Below are positions 3,924-9,272 of a stretch of 64,000 nt of DNA, piece after piece. A model generated the notes under the pieces. The model was not told where the DNA came from and searched no databases. It worked only from the letters and a program-made list of their open reading frames with translations. The DNA is from the human T2T-CHM13v2.0 reference genome, Homo sapiens. Each line of letters begins with the position of its first letter. The stretch's first letter is position 1. The stretch is taken from NCBI RefSeq assembly GCF_009914755.1, contig NC_060940.1; one strand, written 5' to 3'. Position numbers and translations under genes: made by a program.

Positions 3924-4373
3924 CTGAGGCTGTGTGTAACCCTTGAGGTCGCCCAAGCTAAGCACTCCAGAACATACAGGGAAATTTGAGACCTCCTCTT
4001 CTATAGGCCCATCCTCATTAATATCTCATCTTAGCTTCAAGTGCCCAATGTGGTGGACCCAGAACCCAGGATGCCAGAAATTATACTTTTGAGGCTGCCC
4101 TAGGGAGGGTCTCAGTCAGGCAGATGCCTAGGAATAAATGGAATTATAAAGTGTGTAACTTTTTTTATTGTCTTTTTTTACTCAGTATAATTTCCTAGAG
4201 ACGTTAACATTTTTGTGTGTTTCAAAGCTTGTTCTTTCTTATATTGCTCAGTGGGTCTCCATGGTATGAATGTGCCACACTCTGTGTAACTGTTTACCCA
4301 TCCAAAGACATATCTGTTGTTTCCAGTTTTTGGCAATTATCAGCAAAGCTGCTGTGAAAATTCATATATGGAT
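3924..4373 (+). repeat. Inverted duplication arm 1, source copy (partner 4862-5310)
   Basis: The reverse complement of 4862-5310 matches this interval with about 8 differences in 450 bp. Confidence 0.97.
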
Positions 4374-4740
4374 TTTTGTGTGAATAAATGTTTTGTTACT
4401 CTGAGAAATATGCAGGACTGCAATTGCTGGTCACGGAGTAGTTGCATATTTAATTTTATTAGAAACTGCCTAACTGCTCTCCGTAGTGGCTGTATTATTT
4501 AACACTCCCATCATCAAAGAATGAATGATCCAGTCTCCACTTCTCCTCTACATTTGGTTTTATCATTACTACTATTTTTATCCTAGCCACTCTGCTGAGT
4601 GTGTATTGATGTTTCATTTGTGTTTTAATACCTACTTATTTAATGATTAACTATGTTGAACATCATTTACTGTGTTTATATGACATCTGCATATTATCTT
4701 AAGTGTAATGTCTATGTATGTTTTATGCCCATTTTCTTTG
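4135..4740 (-). mobile_element. Old L1M (L1MC/MD-like) ORF2 end and 3' region fragment
   Basis: Typical antisense L1M motifs 'tgtttccagtttttggcaattat...aaagctgctgtgaaaattc', 'tagaaactgcc', 'gatgttgaacatc'-like. Confidence 0.75.
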
Positions 4741-4744
4741 CTTA

Positions 4745-4863
4745 AAGAATTTTATTTAGCTATAATTCGCTTATCAAATAATGTACCCATTTAAAGTATA
4801 TAATCCAATGATTTTAGTTTGTGCACAGTTGTGCAGCCATCACCACAGTCAATTATAGAACAT
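4745..4863 (-). mobile_element. L1MB-like 3' terminal fragment; its upstream part lies inverted at 6294-6413
   Basis: The reverse complement reads 'atgttctataattgactgtggtgatggctgcacaac...tactttaaatgggt...aataaa', a classic L1MB 3' end. Candidate TSD taagcaa at 4738-4744 (rc) and 6287-6293. Confidence 0.7.
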
Positions 4864-5310
4864 CCATATATGAATTTTCACAGCAGCTTTGCTTATAATT
4901 GCCAAAAACTGGAAACAACAGATATGTCTTTGGATGGGTAAACAGTTACACAGAGTGTGGCACATTCATACCATGGAGACCACTGAGCAATATAAGAAAG
5001 AACAAGCTTTGAAACACACAAAAATGTTAACGTCTCTAGGAAATTATACTGAGTAAAAAAAGACAATAAAAAAAGTTACACACTTTATAATTCCATTTAT
5101 TCCTAGGCATCTGCCTGACTGAGACCCTCCCTAGGGCAACCTCAAAAGTATAAGTTCTGGCATCCTGGGTTCTGGATCCACCACACTGGGCACTTGAAGC
5201 TAAGATGAGATATTAATGAGGATGGGCCTATAGAAGAGGAGACCTCAAATTTCCCTGTATGTTCTGGAGTGCTTAGCTTGGGCGACCTCAAGGGTTACAC
5301 ACAGCCTCAG
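4862..5310 (-). repeat. Inverted duplication arm 1, derived copy of 3924-4373
   Basis: Direct reverse-complement alignment, about 98% identity. Confidence 0.97.
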
Positions 5311-6091
5311 ACTACAGTCACTCTTTGACTGGAAAAGAATGTTGCTAACTGTACACATGATGGTTTTATGTTATTTGCTAATTCTAGGATGCAAAGCTGG
5401 AATAAGAGCAATGACTGCCACACCTGACAGACCTGTCGCTGAACACATCTGCACTCTCCAATCCAAAAGACCTGATGCAGAAAACAAAAAAGGGGAGATG
5501 TGGTGGTTTAGTCAGGCTGGTTGGAAAAAAAAATTAGTTATAATAGCCACAAACCCTCTTGGAAGGCATGAGATTTTGCATAACTTTGGTAATAAATCTG
5601 GCTGAAGGCAGCCTAGTCCCCTACATTTCATTAAATAAATTAGAGTAGAAACAAAGAAATGTGAGGAAGTTATCTAACTATCTTGTTTAGTCATGTAGTC
5701 CTAAGATTAACTTTTGATCTGCCATGGGTGCTTAATTGCTTTCTACTTGGAAGGTTGGCAATGTCAATTACCCTCTAGTGGTGTTGACTCAAGCCTTTGT
5801 CAATTAGTCTTGACTGAATAAATGCGAGTCTCACTGGCTGGTTGGGGCCATGGTCACAACTGTTTACAGCATTCTCCTGGGAGTCTGTAAGCGGTCCGGA
5901 TGCTCAGTCGAATTGGCAAAACAGAATATCTCTGTGTTAGTGTACTTAATTCTTCCATTGTTGAGTCAGGGTCTGCAGGCAGACCCCTTCAGAGGAGTTA
6001 CAATTCAAGATAAGATTTGGGTGGGTATACAACCAAACCATGTCACCAGGAAACTGTCCTCTTTTCTTGCACTTGTCATCTGCTGTCAAAA
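5311..6091 (-). repeat. Inverted duplication arm 2, derived copy of 7918-8698 (includes a complete LTR22 at ~5499-5991 on +, the PPT and a THE1 stub)
   Basis: Reverse-complement match to 7918-8698 with only one difference noticed. Mirrored ORFs 5339..5605/8404..8730 and 5850..6101/7887..8159 in the ORF track. Confidence 0.97.
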
Positions 6092-6413: not shown

Positions 6414-6939
6414 ATTTTTACAAAATGTAAAAAAAAAATCTATCCAGAGTGCTGAAATGCTAAAGGTTATTGGAACCCAATTGAGCCTGAAGGATAGAGC
6501 CCTGTGGGGACTTTTGACACACAAGTGGGCTCCTTTTTTGTTGCACAAGGGCGGGGGAGCCTTATCCAGATCGAAACCACAGGGTGGTGGCTGAAAATGT
6601 GACTATCTCCTCCCTTTTCTTGTAAAAATCTTATAAATTAGGTAACAAATGTGGAGTAATGTCTTCAGGAAGAATATCTCTCATATATTTAAAATTCACC
6701 TGTTAAACTGGAAGAGCCTCTTTCTCTGTCCCAATTATTTTTTATTAAGGTATAAATTGGTTTATCAAGTAGTTGATATTTGACTTTTGATAACATGTTA
6801 GAACCTGGGAGTTTATATAATATGTACAATAAGCATTGGTCAATCAAATGCATTTCTTAGGCAGCTATTATTTACTTGTATAAAATCAGAGCTAGAAAGA
6901 GGAGCATAATATTGCCTTTAAGGAGCCAACATACTTGTA

Positions 6940-7270
6940 GAGATTCATTCACAAGTTTTTATTCAGCAGCTTTAAGTGCGTTACACCAAGCAAGTGATGA
7001 AGAAACTATCTCTTTAGTTTTATTTGTTGAATGGTGGAGATAAGTATAGAGGAGTGCACTCAATCCAGTGTGGGAAGGAGGTAGGTTAGGTGGTGGGAAG
7101 TGGAGGTGAAGGCGAGGCTTTGTAAAAGAAGTGTTGACTGAAGGAGGAGATGGCAGAAGTTAGCTGGGTAAGTAAGGAAGAAGGAGAGGCAGACCTTTAG
7201 ATGCCTGGCACTGACAAAGATAGCAGAATGCACATTTCAGCCATGAGCACAAGGAAATTTGTGTGGCAAA
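6940..7270 (-). mobile_element. Degenerate L2 fragment
   Basis: Antisense L2 3' end 'attcattcacaagtttttattcagcag' followed by L2-like purine-rich sequence. Confidence 0.4.
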
Positions 7271-7963
7271 AACAGCACTTTTTCTTACTTTGAAAATTTG
7301 GGTGGAGGGAATAAACTCCTGGATGTTGGGGCCAAACAAATTAGAAAGCACATTTTACTCACTTTTATATTGTCTGGAACATAAACTTTAATTGAGATTT
7401 CAGATGAAAAAATTCAATGATTTCCAGAAAATATTCTGTAGAACACAGTTTGCTCAAAATATTAATAAATACCAGTTGATGAATGGGTTCTAAGGTCAAA
7501 TAAGTTCAGAATATTTAAATCACTATTGTGAGTCTTAAGAGAGTGAAAGCCCACAGTTTTCCAGGGGCTTTAGGCAGATTTTATTTGACCGTCTTGAGAA
7601 ACCAGTAATTAGAGAACACCTTTGGAAGTGCTGTGTCAGCGTCCATGTGGCAGGAATGCTTCCTGGCTAGTCTAACAGACCTGAGTCTCACTGAAGGGTC
7701 TCTGCTCCCCTGAGAGCCCAACACAAGCTGGAGACAGGCTGTCAGGAGGTGGCTGCATATGTGTTAATAATGGGAAGACTTAAAATGGGGTGTGAAATAA
7801 GTCATTCAATTGAAAGACCTTCAACAAAAAAAAGCCATGGTTTCTGTCTTAGTGAGAAGGCTTGTGGCTTGTGGTAGTTTTGTGTTCTAAGCACAGGCTG
7901 CCTGGGACCTAGCTAGCTTTTGACAGCAGATGACAAGTGCAAGAAAAGAGGACAGTTTCCTGG

Positions 7964-8017
7964 TGACATGGTTTGGTTGTATACCCACCCAAATCTTATC
8001 TTGAATTGTAACTCCTC
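7964..8017 (+). mobile_element. THE1 (ERVL-MaLR) LTR 5' stub; continues at 14800-14824
   Basis: 'tgacatggtttggttgtatacccacccaaatcttatcttgaattgtaactcc' plus 'ctcccataattctcacgtgttgtg' reconstitutes the THE1 LTR start. Confidence 0.85.
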
Positions 8018-8510
8018 TGAAGGGGTCTGCCTGCAGACCCTGACTCAACAATGGAAGAATTAAGTACACTAACACAGAGATATTCTGTTTTGCCAATTCG
8101 ACTGAGCATCCGGACCGCTTACAGACTCCCAGGAGAATGCTGTAAACAGTTGTGACCATGGCCCCAACCAGCCAGTGAGACTCGCATTTATTCAGTCAAG
8201 ACTAATTGACAAAGGCTTGAGTCAACACCACTAGAGGGTAATTGACATTGCCAACCTTCCAAGTAGAAAGCAATTAAGCACCCATGGCAGATCAAAAGTT
8301 AATCTTAGGACTACATGACTAAACAAGATAGTTAGATAACTTCCTCACATTTCTTTGTTTCTACTCTAATTTATTTAATGAAATGTAGGGGACTAGGCTG
8401 CCTTCAGCCAGATTTATTACCAAAGTTATGCAAAATCTCATGCCTTCCAAGAGGGTTTGTGGCTATTATAACTAATTTTTTTTTCCAACCAGCCTGACTA
8501 AACCACCACA
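8018..8510 (-). mobile_element. 3' LTR22 of the HML-5 provirus
   Basis: Minus strand TGTGGTGGTTTAGTCAGG...GACCCCTTCA, with AATAAA; preceded by the PPT AAAAGGGGAGA (8511-8523). Confidence 0.88.
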
Positions 8511-9272
8511 TCTCCCCTTTTTTGTTTTCTGCATCAGGTCTTTTGGATTGGAGAGTGCAGATGTGTTCAGCGACAGGTCTGTCAGGTGTGGCAGTCATTG
8601 CTCTTATTCCAGCTTTGCATCCTAGAATTAGCAAATAATATAAAACCATCATGTGTACAGTTAGCAACATTCTTTTCCAGTCAAAGAGTGACTGTAGTGT
8701 TATTTGGCATCTCAGTTTATTGTATGCCATTAATGAGGAACTCCATTATGTTAATTTTTTTTAGTTAAACAGTCACGTTGTTAGAAGATGAGAAGGGGGT
8801 GTTTTTTAAAGTAACAGGGCAGAAAAAAGGCGGACTTAAGAAATGAGCTTAATAGAGTGTAGCAGGTACCAGTTGCAGACAAAGTGGGAGAATTAAAAAG
8901 GATTAAAATTTCTGGCTCAACCTTTTGCTTCTTTATATTGTGTGTCTTCTGCAGAAGCAGCATTGCCTGGGGCTGCTGGTCCTATAGTAGGGTCTTTTTT
9001 AGGCTGGTTTGAGTTTTTTTTTTCTTTCCATCCTTTAATGAGGACGTAGTCTCCAGGCTGGTGCTGGTGTACTGGAAATTCTAGGGGTGGTGCCTGTGCT
9101 AAGACACCTTTTATAATCTTTCTAAAGAGCAGGTTAGTGCTTTAAGAAAAACCTGCTGTGATTTATTTTAATGTCTAGTTTACAGAAAAACTGGATGAAA
9201 CTTCTTTAACTTTAGCCAATATGTTTACACACAGAATTTTTTTTACAATTAACATTTTAAAACTTGCTTAGA

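What the first reader, a model, noticed from the sequence alone, without database searches (positions are those of the whole stretch)
3924..8698. Four-junction template-switch rearrangement: a micro-inversion with two inverted templated insertions
Seen in sequence: the forward sequence runs to 4863, then (J1) continues as the reverse complement of 4373>3924. At J2 (5311, 1-nt overlap 'a') it continues as the reverse complement of 8698>7918. At J3 (~6088-6091, A-run microhomology) it enters a ~320 bp segment (6092-6413) that is the inverted native continuation of the L1M/L1MB nest. At J4 (6414) forward sequence resumes. Flipping 6092-6413 back restores both L1 elements and a taagcaa TSD, and the 8-mer tagaacat is present at both inversion ends. 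Inference: a single FoSTeS/MMBIR-type event with four template switches inside 5 kb, whose ancestral allele can be rebuilt from this window alone. The 8698>3924 join is also what a circle or tandem-duplication junction would look like.
Basis: partly seen in the sequence, partly recalled or inferred. Interest (0 to 1): 0.8.

Follow-up and report, generated by a model that had tools for sequence, protein, structure and literature searches.

The report
Local four-junction rearrangement with inverted copies
A 5-kb stretch of gene-poor human DNA beside the chromosome 16 centromere carries a real small scramble, with two nearby pieces copied backwards and a third piece flipped, which is a tidy but ordinary example of a well-known kind of DNA copying accident.

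Summary

**Structure**
- 4862-5311 is the reverse complement of 3923-4373 (7 substitutions and 1 indel in 450 nt).
- 5311-6091 is the reverse complement of 7918-8698 (1 substitution in 781 nt).
- 6092-6413 is native L1 sequence lying backwards.
- The four junctions carry 0-4 nt of microhomology.
- The 8-mer TAGAACAT sits at both J1 and J4 in opposite orientation, which ties those two junctions together.
- Repeat-element continuity shows that 3924-4373 and 7918-8698 are the sources and the inner copies are derived.
- No other copy of these pieces exists in this genome at 90% identity or more.

**Interpretation**
- The best reading is one replication-linked event of the FoSTeS/MMBIR type with four template switches (confidence about 0.5).
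- The single-event claim is not proven. The two copied pieces differ about tenfold in divergence from their sources (Fisher p = 0.002-0.005). That suggests either two events of different age or gene conversion.
- An end-joining "chain of short insertions" model cannot be excluded from the sequence alone.
- The adjacency of the far end of the flipped piece with 6414 has no independent support.

Complex variants of this kind are found by the hundred in healthy genomes, and no gene is touched. Interest is low to moderate. This is a new member of a known kind.

The parts
3615..3915 (+). Alu with poly(A) tail. Its target-site duplications lie at 3601-3614 and 3912-3925. The source segment 'a' begins 2-3 nt inside the 3' duplication.
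   Evidence: Read. Alu-type matches to 3615-3917 occur in many loci. Masked 3608-3925 in the hub's table.
3924..4373 (+). Segment a, the source of the first inverted copy. 3924-4133 is unique DNA and 4134-4373 is the start of an old L1M copy.
   Evidence: It is the source copy because 7 of 10 L1M-class loci align without a break across 4373/4374. Only two copies of 3924-4140 exist in the genome.
3991..4095 (.). Six of the seven a/a' substitutions (partners 5139-5243), 68-172 nt from J2. 3991-3992 is an AC/GT swap inside GAG..CTC, that is, a hairpin-loop flip.
   Evidence: Clustering inside a alone is not significant (P = 0.13). Over the whole insert P = 0.01.
4374..4863 (+). Segment B, kept in place. 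It holds L1M up to about 4737, the 7-mer TTGCTTA at 4738-4744, then a nested L1 fragment at 4745-4863 that ends in TAGAACAT (4856-4863).
   Evidence: 8 of 10 L1M-class loci end at 4734-4738, and 15 of 16 nested-class loci end at 4861-4863. for the 8-mer.
4862..5311 (-). a', the inverted copy of 3923-4373. J1 lies at its left end with a 2-nt AT overlap (4862-4863).
   Evidence: L1M loci match it only as far as 4866-4882, so it is the truncated copy.
5311..6091 (-). c', the inverted copy of 7918-8698. J2 lies at 5311 (1-nt overlap) and J3 inside the A-run 6088-6094.
   Evidence: Repeat copies elsewhere in the genome match it only from 5317 on, that is, cut at J2.
6092..6413 (-). d', native sequence in reverse orientation. 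It holds the continuation of the nested L1 (6405 down to 6294), the 7-mer TAAGCAA (6287-6293), the continuation of the host L1M (6286 down to about 6105), and at its right end the inverted 8-mer (6406-6413).
   Evidence: the nested-family profile hits 6394->6297 on the minus strand (E = 0.004) and the L1M profile hits 6269->6200 on the minus strand (E = 0.024); collinear minus-strand matches for L015 (E 6e-5), L013 (4e-4), L021 (0.003), L012 and L019. L020 (E 4e-7). No other genomic copy.
6415..6433 (+). AT-only hairpin-capable palindrome (8-bp stem, 3-nt loop) 1-2 nt to the right of J4 (6413/6414).
   Evidence: -4.8 kcal/mol as DNA, z = -4.1, and 1 of 200 shuffles folds as well.
6414..7917 (+). 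Segment E, in place and single copy. It forms the spacer between c' and c together with d'.
   Evidence: Searches show no repeat. Its native adjacency to the flipped d is assumed, not shown.
7918..8698 (+). Segment c, the source of the second inverted copy. From about 8022 it lies in an interspersed LTR-like repeat that runs on to 9272.
   Evidence: It is the source copy because repeat copies on other chromosomes match 8022-9272 or 8022-9226 in one piece across 8698 (C12 at 77%, C19 at 77%).

Best explanation
This is a real, selectively neutral complex rearrangement, most likely made in one replication-linked accident of the FoSTeS/MMBIR type.

The inferred ancestral order is a - B - d - E - c. 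The inferred path of the growing strand is as follows (it can equally be read in the opposite direction):
1. It copied forward to the end of B (4863).
2. It switched to the opposite strand at the end of a, using a 2-nt overlap, and copied a backwards until just before an Alu poly(A) tail.
3. It switched to the end of c, using a 1-nt overlap, and copied c backwards to a T-run.
4. It switched to the far end of d, in a T/A run, and copied d backwards through its start and 8 nt further into B.
5. It switched back to the forward strand at the start of E, next to an AT hairpin, and carried on.

The net result is 1,228 nt gained (4864-6091) and 322 nt inverted.

- Shown: the four junctions, which copy is the source, and the 8-nt overlap.
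- Inferred: that replication made it, that it was one event, and the order of the switches.

No gene or known functional element is touched. The only likely lasting effect is two new inverted repeats that can fold back or flip their spacers.
For: 1. Copy gain. Both a and c are present twice, and the inner copies are truncated inside repeats that run through the outer copies. A template was therefore copied, not merely cut and rejoined.
2. Donor distance. All donors lie within 3.5 kb of the acceptor site.
3. Junctions. They are clean, with 2, 1, 0-4 and 0-1 nt of overlap and no long homology. The MMBIR paper names microhomology of 2-5 bp, inverted duplications mixed with other changes, low-processivity synthesis with several switches, and the need for a second inverted switch (PMC2621351, passages seen).
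4. The 8-mer. TAGAACAT ends the forward run at J1 and, inverted, ends d' at J4. Related L1 copies have it once. This overlap links J1 and J4 to one act.
5. No reuse slack. The copies a', c' and d' abut with no leftover bases beyond the A-run. A stepwise history needs a second insertion exactly at an older junction.
6. Break sites sit at stall-prone sequence. These are an Alu poly(A) 8 nt from the start of a, T/A runs at J3, and a hairpin at J4.
7. Precedent. Complex variants with inverted or dispersed duplications are common in healthy genomes and are attributed to MMBIR (PMC9510932, passages seen).
Against: 1. Unequal divergence. The a/a' pair has 8 differences in 450 nt and the c/c' pair has 1 in 781 nt. 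Fisher p = 0.0019, or 0.0046 when the dinucleotide is counted once. One event predicts equal divergence unless gene conversion or event-linked mutation intervened.
2. Ordinary drift on both copies. At the three sites that could be polarised, the changes fall on both old and new copies. At 8639 the source c looks derived (3 of 4 family copies carry the c' base). At 4341 the source base C is in 0 of 8 family copies. At 4253 the copy a' lost a base. This is what drift over time gives, not only copying errors.
3. Weak microhomology. One nt or none at two junctions is below the 2-5 nt given for MMBIR.
4. A rival mechanism. A recent paper argues that chains of short (1 kb or less) nearby insertions come from end joining after breakage and replication, not from MMBIR (PMC12807874).
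5. No outside data. No outgroup, second haplotype or read data were available here.
Confidence: 0.5

Rival explanations
1. Two or more events of different age. An older event made J1, J4 and a direct a'/d' join (an inverted copy of a plus inversion of d). Much later a second templated insertion put c' exactly into that old join, creating J2 and J3.
For: - The a/a' pair is about 12 times more diverged than c/c' (1.8% against 0.13%, Fisher p = 0.0019).
- Within a the differences are compatible with an even spread (P = 0.13), as simple age would give.
- Rough ages are 8-16 Myr for a/a' against 0.6-1.3 Myr for c/c' (the rates are recalled, not computed).
- The old join would have been an A/T-rich site, which might be fragile.
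Against: - The second insertion must hit the earlier junction to within about 3 nt and leave no split of a' or d'. That is a small target within kilobases.
- Outside 3991-4095, a/a' (2 differences in 345 nt) does not differ from c/c' (p = 0.22).
- Gene conversion between the longer c arms could equally explain the difference.
Confidence: 0.25
2. One event, but by breakage and end joining rather than template switching. Breaks occurred on both sides of d, the left one staggered by 8 nt. Fragments of a and c from the sister chromatid or from replicated broken ends were then captured and ligated as a chain together with the flipped d (breakage-replication/fusion or a local chromoplexy-like repair).
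For: - Overlaps of 0-4 nt fit end joining.
- Both insertions are 1 kb or shorter and come from less than 4 kb away. This matches the 'chains of short insertions near breakpoints' described in PMC12807874 (abstract and sections 7 and 13 read).
- The inverted 8-nt duplication is what fill-in of a staggered break gives. The staggered-break model for inversions is recalled, not looked up.
Against: - It needs at least six breaks on two chromatids within 3.5 kb.
- There are no untemplated bases at any junction.
- Nothing was lost at the checked left join.
- The strand test used in that paper cannot be applied to a single fixed allele.
Confidence: 0.2
3. Assembly artefact: a fold-back chimera built into the consensus sequence.
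For: The c/c' pair is almost identical (1 mismatch in 781 nt). No read data could be checked here.
Against: - The arms are not identical: there are 9 differences in total. A read-level fold-back would give identical arms.
- The structure has four distinct junctions and includes an inverted single-copy segment.
- The whole structure spans under 5 kb, well inside single long reads (general knowledge of this assembly's data types, recalled).
Confidence: 0.03

Closest known systems
FoSTeS/MMBIR complex genomic rearrangements (Lee 2007, recalled; Hastings 2009, PMC2621351)
   Same: Several junctions in cis, nearby templated inverted duplications mixed with an inversion, very short junction overlaps, and two inverted switches that restore a normal chromosome.
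   Different: - It is kilobase scale, in a gene-poor pericentromeric region, and seen as a settled allele in a reference genome rather than de novo in a patient.
- Two junctions have 1 nt of overlap or less.
- The two copied pieces are unequally diverged.
Population complex structural variant classes (dispersed or inverted duplication with inversion; Mako, PMC9510932; cxSV subclasses, PMC6286558)
   Same: It belongs to the same broad class. PMC9510932 reports 1,568 complex variants detected in three genomes, of which 134 contain inverted or dispersed duplications attributed to MMBIR (passages).
   Different: The exact layout, an inversion plus two inverted dispersed duplications from opposite sides joined head to tail, matches none of the named subclasses in the passages read (dupINVdup, delINVdup, delINVdel, DisdupInvdup).
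Breakage-replication/fusion chains of short insertions (PMC12807874)
   Same: A chain of two insertions of 1 kb or less taken from within a few kb of the breakpoints, with short junction overlaps.
   Different: That work describes cancer-like and experimental chromothripsis with large duplications. Here there is no large-scale gain, and its strand test cannot be applied.
Short-range template switches and microinversions in apes (PMC5453318, PMC7954356: listing and abstracts only; PMC8755829: passages read)
   Same: Inverted copying from the opposite strand during replication. The AC/GT flip at 3991-3992 inside GAG..CTC is of exactly this small kind.
   Different: Those events are tens of bases long with one excursion (two switches) and are flanked by pre-existing inverted repeats. 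This one is 0.3-0.8 kb per segment with four junctions and no pre-existing inverted repeats.

Membership tests
FoSTeS/MMBIR complex rearrangement | Complexity: two or more novel junctions in cis, mixing duplication and inversion | tested here: met
   Four junctions, two inverted duplications and one inversion.
FoSTeS/MMBIR complex rearrangement | Copy-number gain of nearby templates | tested here: met
   Segments a and c are each present twice, and the donors lie within 3.5 kb.
FoSTeS/MMBIR complex rearrangement | Microhomology of about 2-5 bp at junctions (PMC2621351) | tested here: inconclusive
   J1 has 2 nt, J2 has 1 nt, J3 has 0-4 nt and J4 has 0-1 nt.
FoSTeS/MMBIR complex rearrangement | All junctions arise in one replication event | not testable with these tools
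   This needs outgroups, other haplotypes or a de novo case. The unequal divergence argues for caution.
FoSTeS/MMBIR complex rearrangement | Extra point mutations near junctions from error-prone synthesis (PMC4937565; Carvalho 2013 known only as cited there) | tested here: inconclusive
   6 of 8 mutational events lie within 175 nt of J2 (P = 0.009, post hoc window). The polarised sites fall on both copies, and the cluster itself cannot be polarised.
dupINVdup (paired-duplication inversion) | Two junctions only, with order Q - S' R' Q' - S | tested here: not met
   The observed order is a B a' c' d' E c with four junctions. The inverted copies lie in the wrong order for this class (the class as given in PMC6286558).
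NAHR inversion between inverted repeats | Pre-existing long inverted repeats at both breakpoints | tested here: not met
   The only inverted repeats are the products themselves, and the junction overlaps are 4 nt or less.
L1 twin-priming 5' inversion | The inversion is confined to one L1 insertion, inside its own target-site duplications | tested here: not met
   The flipped piece contains the nested L1 part, the 7-mer and the host L1M part together.
ODIRA-type inverted triplication (PMC10766183, abstract only) | Three copies, the middle one inverted, with fold-back junctions at short inverted repeats | tested here: not met
   Segments a and c are present twice, not three times.
Breakage-replication/fusion insertion chain | Short insertions (1 kb or less) from within 10 kb of breakpoints, chained at one junction | tested here: met
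   Insertions of 450 nt and 781 nt from less than 4 kb away, chained (PMC12807874 section 13).
Breakage-replication/fusion insertion chain | Adjacent parallel breakpoints, and insertions added to both strands | not testable with these tools
   This needs the original strand of each fragment or a clonal lineage. A single settled allele gives neither.

The most novel reading that the evidence does not exclude
The rearrangement is one event, and the tenfold difference in divergence is a fossil of changing fidelity within a single series of template switches. On this reading a' was synthesised, or sat single-stranded, under mutagenic conditions. All five transitions read as A>G or C>T on one strand, as deamination of single-stranded DNA would give. 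The next stretch, c', was copied accurately. That would make this locus a natural record of event-linked, strand-coordinated hypermutation in a germline complex rearrangement.
Probability: 0.12. Interest if true: 0.45.

Novelty: new member of a known kind. Interest (0 to 1): 0.25.

Why it matters
This is a clean worked example in which most of the pre-event order can be read from repeat-element continuity inside the same window. That makes it useful for teaching and for benchmarking complex-variant callers and template-switch models at the kilobase scale.

The unequal divergence of the two copied pieces gives a simple, testable question for ape and pangenome alignments: one event with later homogenisation or mutagenesis, or repeated breakage at one fragile junction.

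No gene or known regulatory element is involved, so no biological consequence is expected beyond two new inverted repeats (450-nt arms with a 488-nt spacer, and 781-nt arms with a 1,826-nt spacer). These repeats could flip their spacers or fold back.

Tried and rejected
2. A paralogue carrying the ancestral allele was sought. The whole-genome search with 3400-9300 found no non-self match above 87% identity (40 of 12,641 first-look candidates were scored, so counts are lower bounds). Segment d has no other copy. The unique part of a has only its own two copies.
3. Ordinary blastn of 16 nested-class L1 loci against the region gave no match to 6092-6413 (0 of 16). nhmmer with default filters also missed it for both profiles. 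Only nhmmer --max and a permissive blastn found the expected minus-strand matches.
4. Searches were script slips caused by incompatible nhmmer options and gave no result.
5. Continuation of the host L1M into 6414 onward was looked for and not found in the expected register. The only hits were weak and off-register, for example L013 156-236 against 6719-6798 at E = 0.008. The right-hand ancestral join therefore stays unverified.
6. Polarising the 3991-4095 cluster is impossible without a third copy.
7. dupINVdup, NAHR, L1 twin priming and ODIRA were considered and rejected on layout (see Membership tests).
8. A tandem-duplication, then inversion, then two-deletions history, and a circle-capture history, were worked through on paper. 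Both need at least as many junctions as the four-switch path and add precise deletions.
9. The 8-mer is not over-represented in the window as a whole (4 found, 2.3 expected). Only its placement matters.

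
Full report
**What is there**

The region 3000-10000 holds two inverted repeat pairs and no direct repeats of 40 nt or more.
- Self-blastn gives 5311-6091 against 8698-7918: 781 nt, 1 mismatch.
- It also gives 3923-4376 against 5311-4859: 454 columns, 8 mismatches, 1 gap.

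Base-by-base comparison refines this.
- The first pair (a = 3924-4373, a' = 4862-5311) is truly homologous over 450 nt. It carries 7 substitutions (3991, 3992, 4048, 4058, 4080, 4095, 4341) and one 1-nt indel (4253).
- The second pair (c = 7918-8698, c' = 5311-6091) carries a single substitution (8639/5370).

In the whole 64-kb window these are the only long inverted pairs apart from an 87% match between two copies of an interspersed repeat.

**Junctions** (read)
- J1: the forward sequence ends ...TAGAAC[AT] at 4863 and a' starts with the same AT, a 2-nt overlap.
- J2: base 5311 is shared by the end of a' (partner 3923) and the start of c' (partner 8698), a 1-nt overlap.
- J3: c' ends in four A (6088-6091, partners TTTT 7918-7921) inside a run of seven A (6088-6094), so the overlap is 0-4 nt.
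- J4: this lies at 6413/6414, with an overlap of 0-1 nt that cannot be fixed.
- No junction shows untemplated bases.
- TAGAACAT lies at 4856-4863 (+) and 6406-6413 (-). The window has four copies in all, which is not unusual (2.3 expected; 21 of 100 shuffles reach four). What matters is that two of them sit exactly at J1 and J4.

**Which copies are the sources**
- A genome-wide search with 3400-9300 (40 of 12,641 first-look candidates scored) shows that c from about 8022 lies in an interspersed LTR-like repeat.
- Copies on other chromosomes match 8022-9272 or 8022-9226 in one piece across the end of c at 8698 (C12 and C19, both 77%). They match the inner copy only from 5317, that is, cut at J2.
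- Ten L1M-class loci (aligned) match 4134-4738. Seven of the ten cross 4373/4374 without a break, and their matches to a' stop at 4866-4882.
- So the outer copies are native and the inner ones are derived.
- No non-self match to the 5.9-kb query exceeds 87%. The unique part of a has only its two copies, and 6092-6413 has no other copy.
- The region is therefore not part of a recent segmental duplication, as far as this limited search can tell.

**The flipped piece**
- Sixteen loci of a second L1 class match 4727-4869 at 76-82%. Fifteen of the sixteen end at 4861-4863, where my query had been cut.
- By eye, in at least 14 of the 16 the family sequence runs on past a single AGAACAT.
- Ordinary blastn found no match of these loci to 6092-6413 (0 of 16), and nhmmer with default filters found none either.
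- With filters off, a profile of what follows the 8-mer in 15 of those loci (L029, interrupted by an Alu-like sequence, left out) hits 6394->6297 on the minus strand. E = 0.004, and it is the second-best hit in the window.
- A profile of what follows position 4737 in nine L1M loci hits 6269->6200 on the minus strand. E = 0.024, also second best.
- Both hits are in the predicted register, directly inside the 8-mer and the 7-mer respectively.
- A permissive blastn gives collinear minus-strand matches: L015 9-84 to 6266-6195 (E 6e-5), L013 (4e-4), L021 84-122 to 6152-6114 (0.003), plus L012 and L019.
- One further L1 copy matches 6428-6353 at E 4e-7. Its last 15 nt beyond J4 look like a chance AT-rich extension.
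- TTGCTTA (4738-4744) and its complement (6287-6293) bracket the nested piece once d is turned round.
- Because the flipped piece holds nested L1, the 7-mer and host L1M together, it is not an L1 twin-priming inversion.
- The other end is weaker. I found no continuation of the host L1M into 6414 onward in register, so the ancestral adjacency of flipped 6092 with 6414 is assumed, not shown.

**How it most likely arose**
- The inferred ancestral order is a-B-d-E-c. The present order is a-B-a'-c'-d'-E-c.
- The gain of a and c requires copying.
- The minimum is four novel junctions under every history I worked through: four serial switches, tandem duplication plus inversion plus deletions, circle capture, or the spacer-flipped isomer.
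- The 8-nt overlap means that the inverted copy of d ran 8 nt (6 nt plus the 2-nt overlap) past the point where forward copying had stopped. That is natural for a strand that leaves and later returns, and it ties J1 to J4.
- Break sites lie at stall-prone sequence. The start of a is 8 nt from an Alu poly(A) tail and 2-3 nt inside its target-site duplication. J3 lies in T/A runs. An AT hairpin (8-bp stem, -4.8 kcal/mol, z = -4.1, 1 of 200 shuffles as good) sits 1-2 nt from J4.
- These features match the description of MMBIR (PMC2621351, passages): microhomology, inverted duplications mixed with other changes, low-processivity synthesis with several switches, and a second inverted switch needed for a viable chromosome.

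**What speaks against a single event**
- The two copies are unequally diverged: 8 differences in 450 nt against 1 in 781 nt. Fisher p = 0.0019, or 0.0046 when the adjacent pair 3991-3992 is counted once.
- With recalled substitution rates of 0.5-1e-9 per site per year, the a pair dates to about 8-16 Myr, the c pair to about 0.6-1.3 Myr, and the pooled data to 3-6.5 Myr, all with wide intervals.
- Six of the seven a/a' substitutions lie in 3991-4095. Clustering inside a alone is not significant (P = 0.13).
- Outside that stretch, a/a' no longer differs from c/c' (2 in 345 against 1 in 781, p = 0.22).
- Six of eight events lie within 175 nt of J2 (P = 0.009, but the window was chosen after seeing the data).
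- Read from a to a', all five transitions are A>G or C>T on one strand. That has a two-sided chance of about 0.06, which is not significant.
- Polarisation with family copies puts changes on both sides. At 8639 three of four copies carry the c' base. At 4341 the base of a is found in 0 of 8 copies, and the a' base in 3 of 8. At 4253 a' has lost a base.
- Part of the divergence is therefore ordinary drift.
- Three explanations remain open: two events, with c' inserted later exactly at an old a'/d' join; one event followed by gene conversion that is more efficient between the longer c arms; or event-linked mutagenesis of a'.
- I weigh the need for a second hit within about 3 nt of an old junction as the larger improbability. 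I therefore keep one event ahead, without claiming it as shown.

**Mechanism rivals**
- Overlaps of 0-4 nt also fit end joining.
- PMC12807874 (abstract and sections 7 and 13 read) argues that chains of short nearby insertions arise by breakage, replication of the ends and end joining, and that MMBIR fails a strand test in their clones.
- Our chain of two insertions of 1 kb or less from under 4 kb away fits that pattern too. The test cannot be applied to a settled allele.
- An artefact is unlikely because the arms differ at nine places and the structure includes an inverted single-copy segment. Reads could not be checked.

**Comparison and novelty**
- The layout is not a dupINVdup: the order is wrong and there are four junctions rather than two (PMC6286558, passages).
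- It is not NAHR, because there were no pre-existing inverted repeats.
- It is not an ODIRA triplication, because there are two copies rather than three (PMC10766183, abstract only).
- It is far larger than the short template switches and 17-33-nt microinversions catalogued between apes (PMC8755829, passages; PMC5453318 and PMC7954356, listing and abstracts only).
- Complex variants with inverted or dispersed duplications are numerous in healthy genomes. PMC9510932 reports 1,568 detected in three genomes, 134 with such duplications attributed to MMBIR (passages).
- Elevated variant density near breakpoints of replication-type variants has been reported (PMC4937565, passages).
- My five literature searches were for mechanisms and classes. 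None addressed this locus, so I cannot say whether this particular allele is in print or in variant catalogues. Supplements were not consulted.
- I rate it a new member of a known kind, of low to moderate interest.

Noticed in passing
window 26276 to about 55000: A long array of direct repeats with 171-172-nt spacing and 60-86% identity between copies. It looks like diverged (monomeric) alpha-satellite, which fits the pericentromeric position. The family name is recalled and was not tested.
   Followed up: no
window 4745-4863 plus 6294-6405 (minus strand): The nested L1 fragment is about 231 nt, has no poly(A) tail and is bracketed by a 7-mer. It corresponds to the L1 part lying just upstream of where the host L1M copy begins: family profile position 132 aligns to 4134. 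It may be an older templated insertion or an internal rearrangement of one L1 rather than a normal retrotransposition.
   Followed up: partly
window 3988-3995 and 5239-5246: The adjacent double difference AC against GT sits in GAG-AC-CTC against GAG-GT-CTC. The two 8-mers are reverse complements of each other. This is the signature of a hairpin-loop flip by a very short template switch.
   Followed up: partly
window 8022-9272 and 14310-14804: An interspersed LTR-like repeat with many genomic copies at 75-87% identity. A second partial copy lies at 14310-14804 (87%). The matches end at 9272, exactly where the annotated HMGN2P41 processed pseudogene begins, so the pseudogene seems to have inserted into or next to this repeat.
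   Followed up: no
window 6093-6100 and 6425-6432: ATGTAAAA occurs at both ends of the flipped piece on the + strand. In the inferred ancestral order the far end of d and the start of E would form an additional 8-nt AT-rich inverted repeat around the breakpoint. This was read. The joined sequence was not folded.
   Followed up: no
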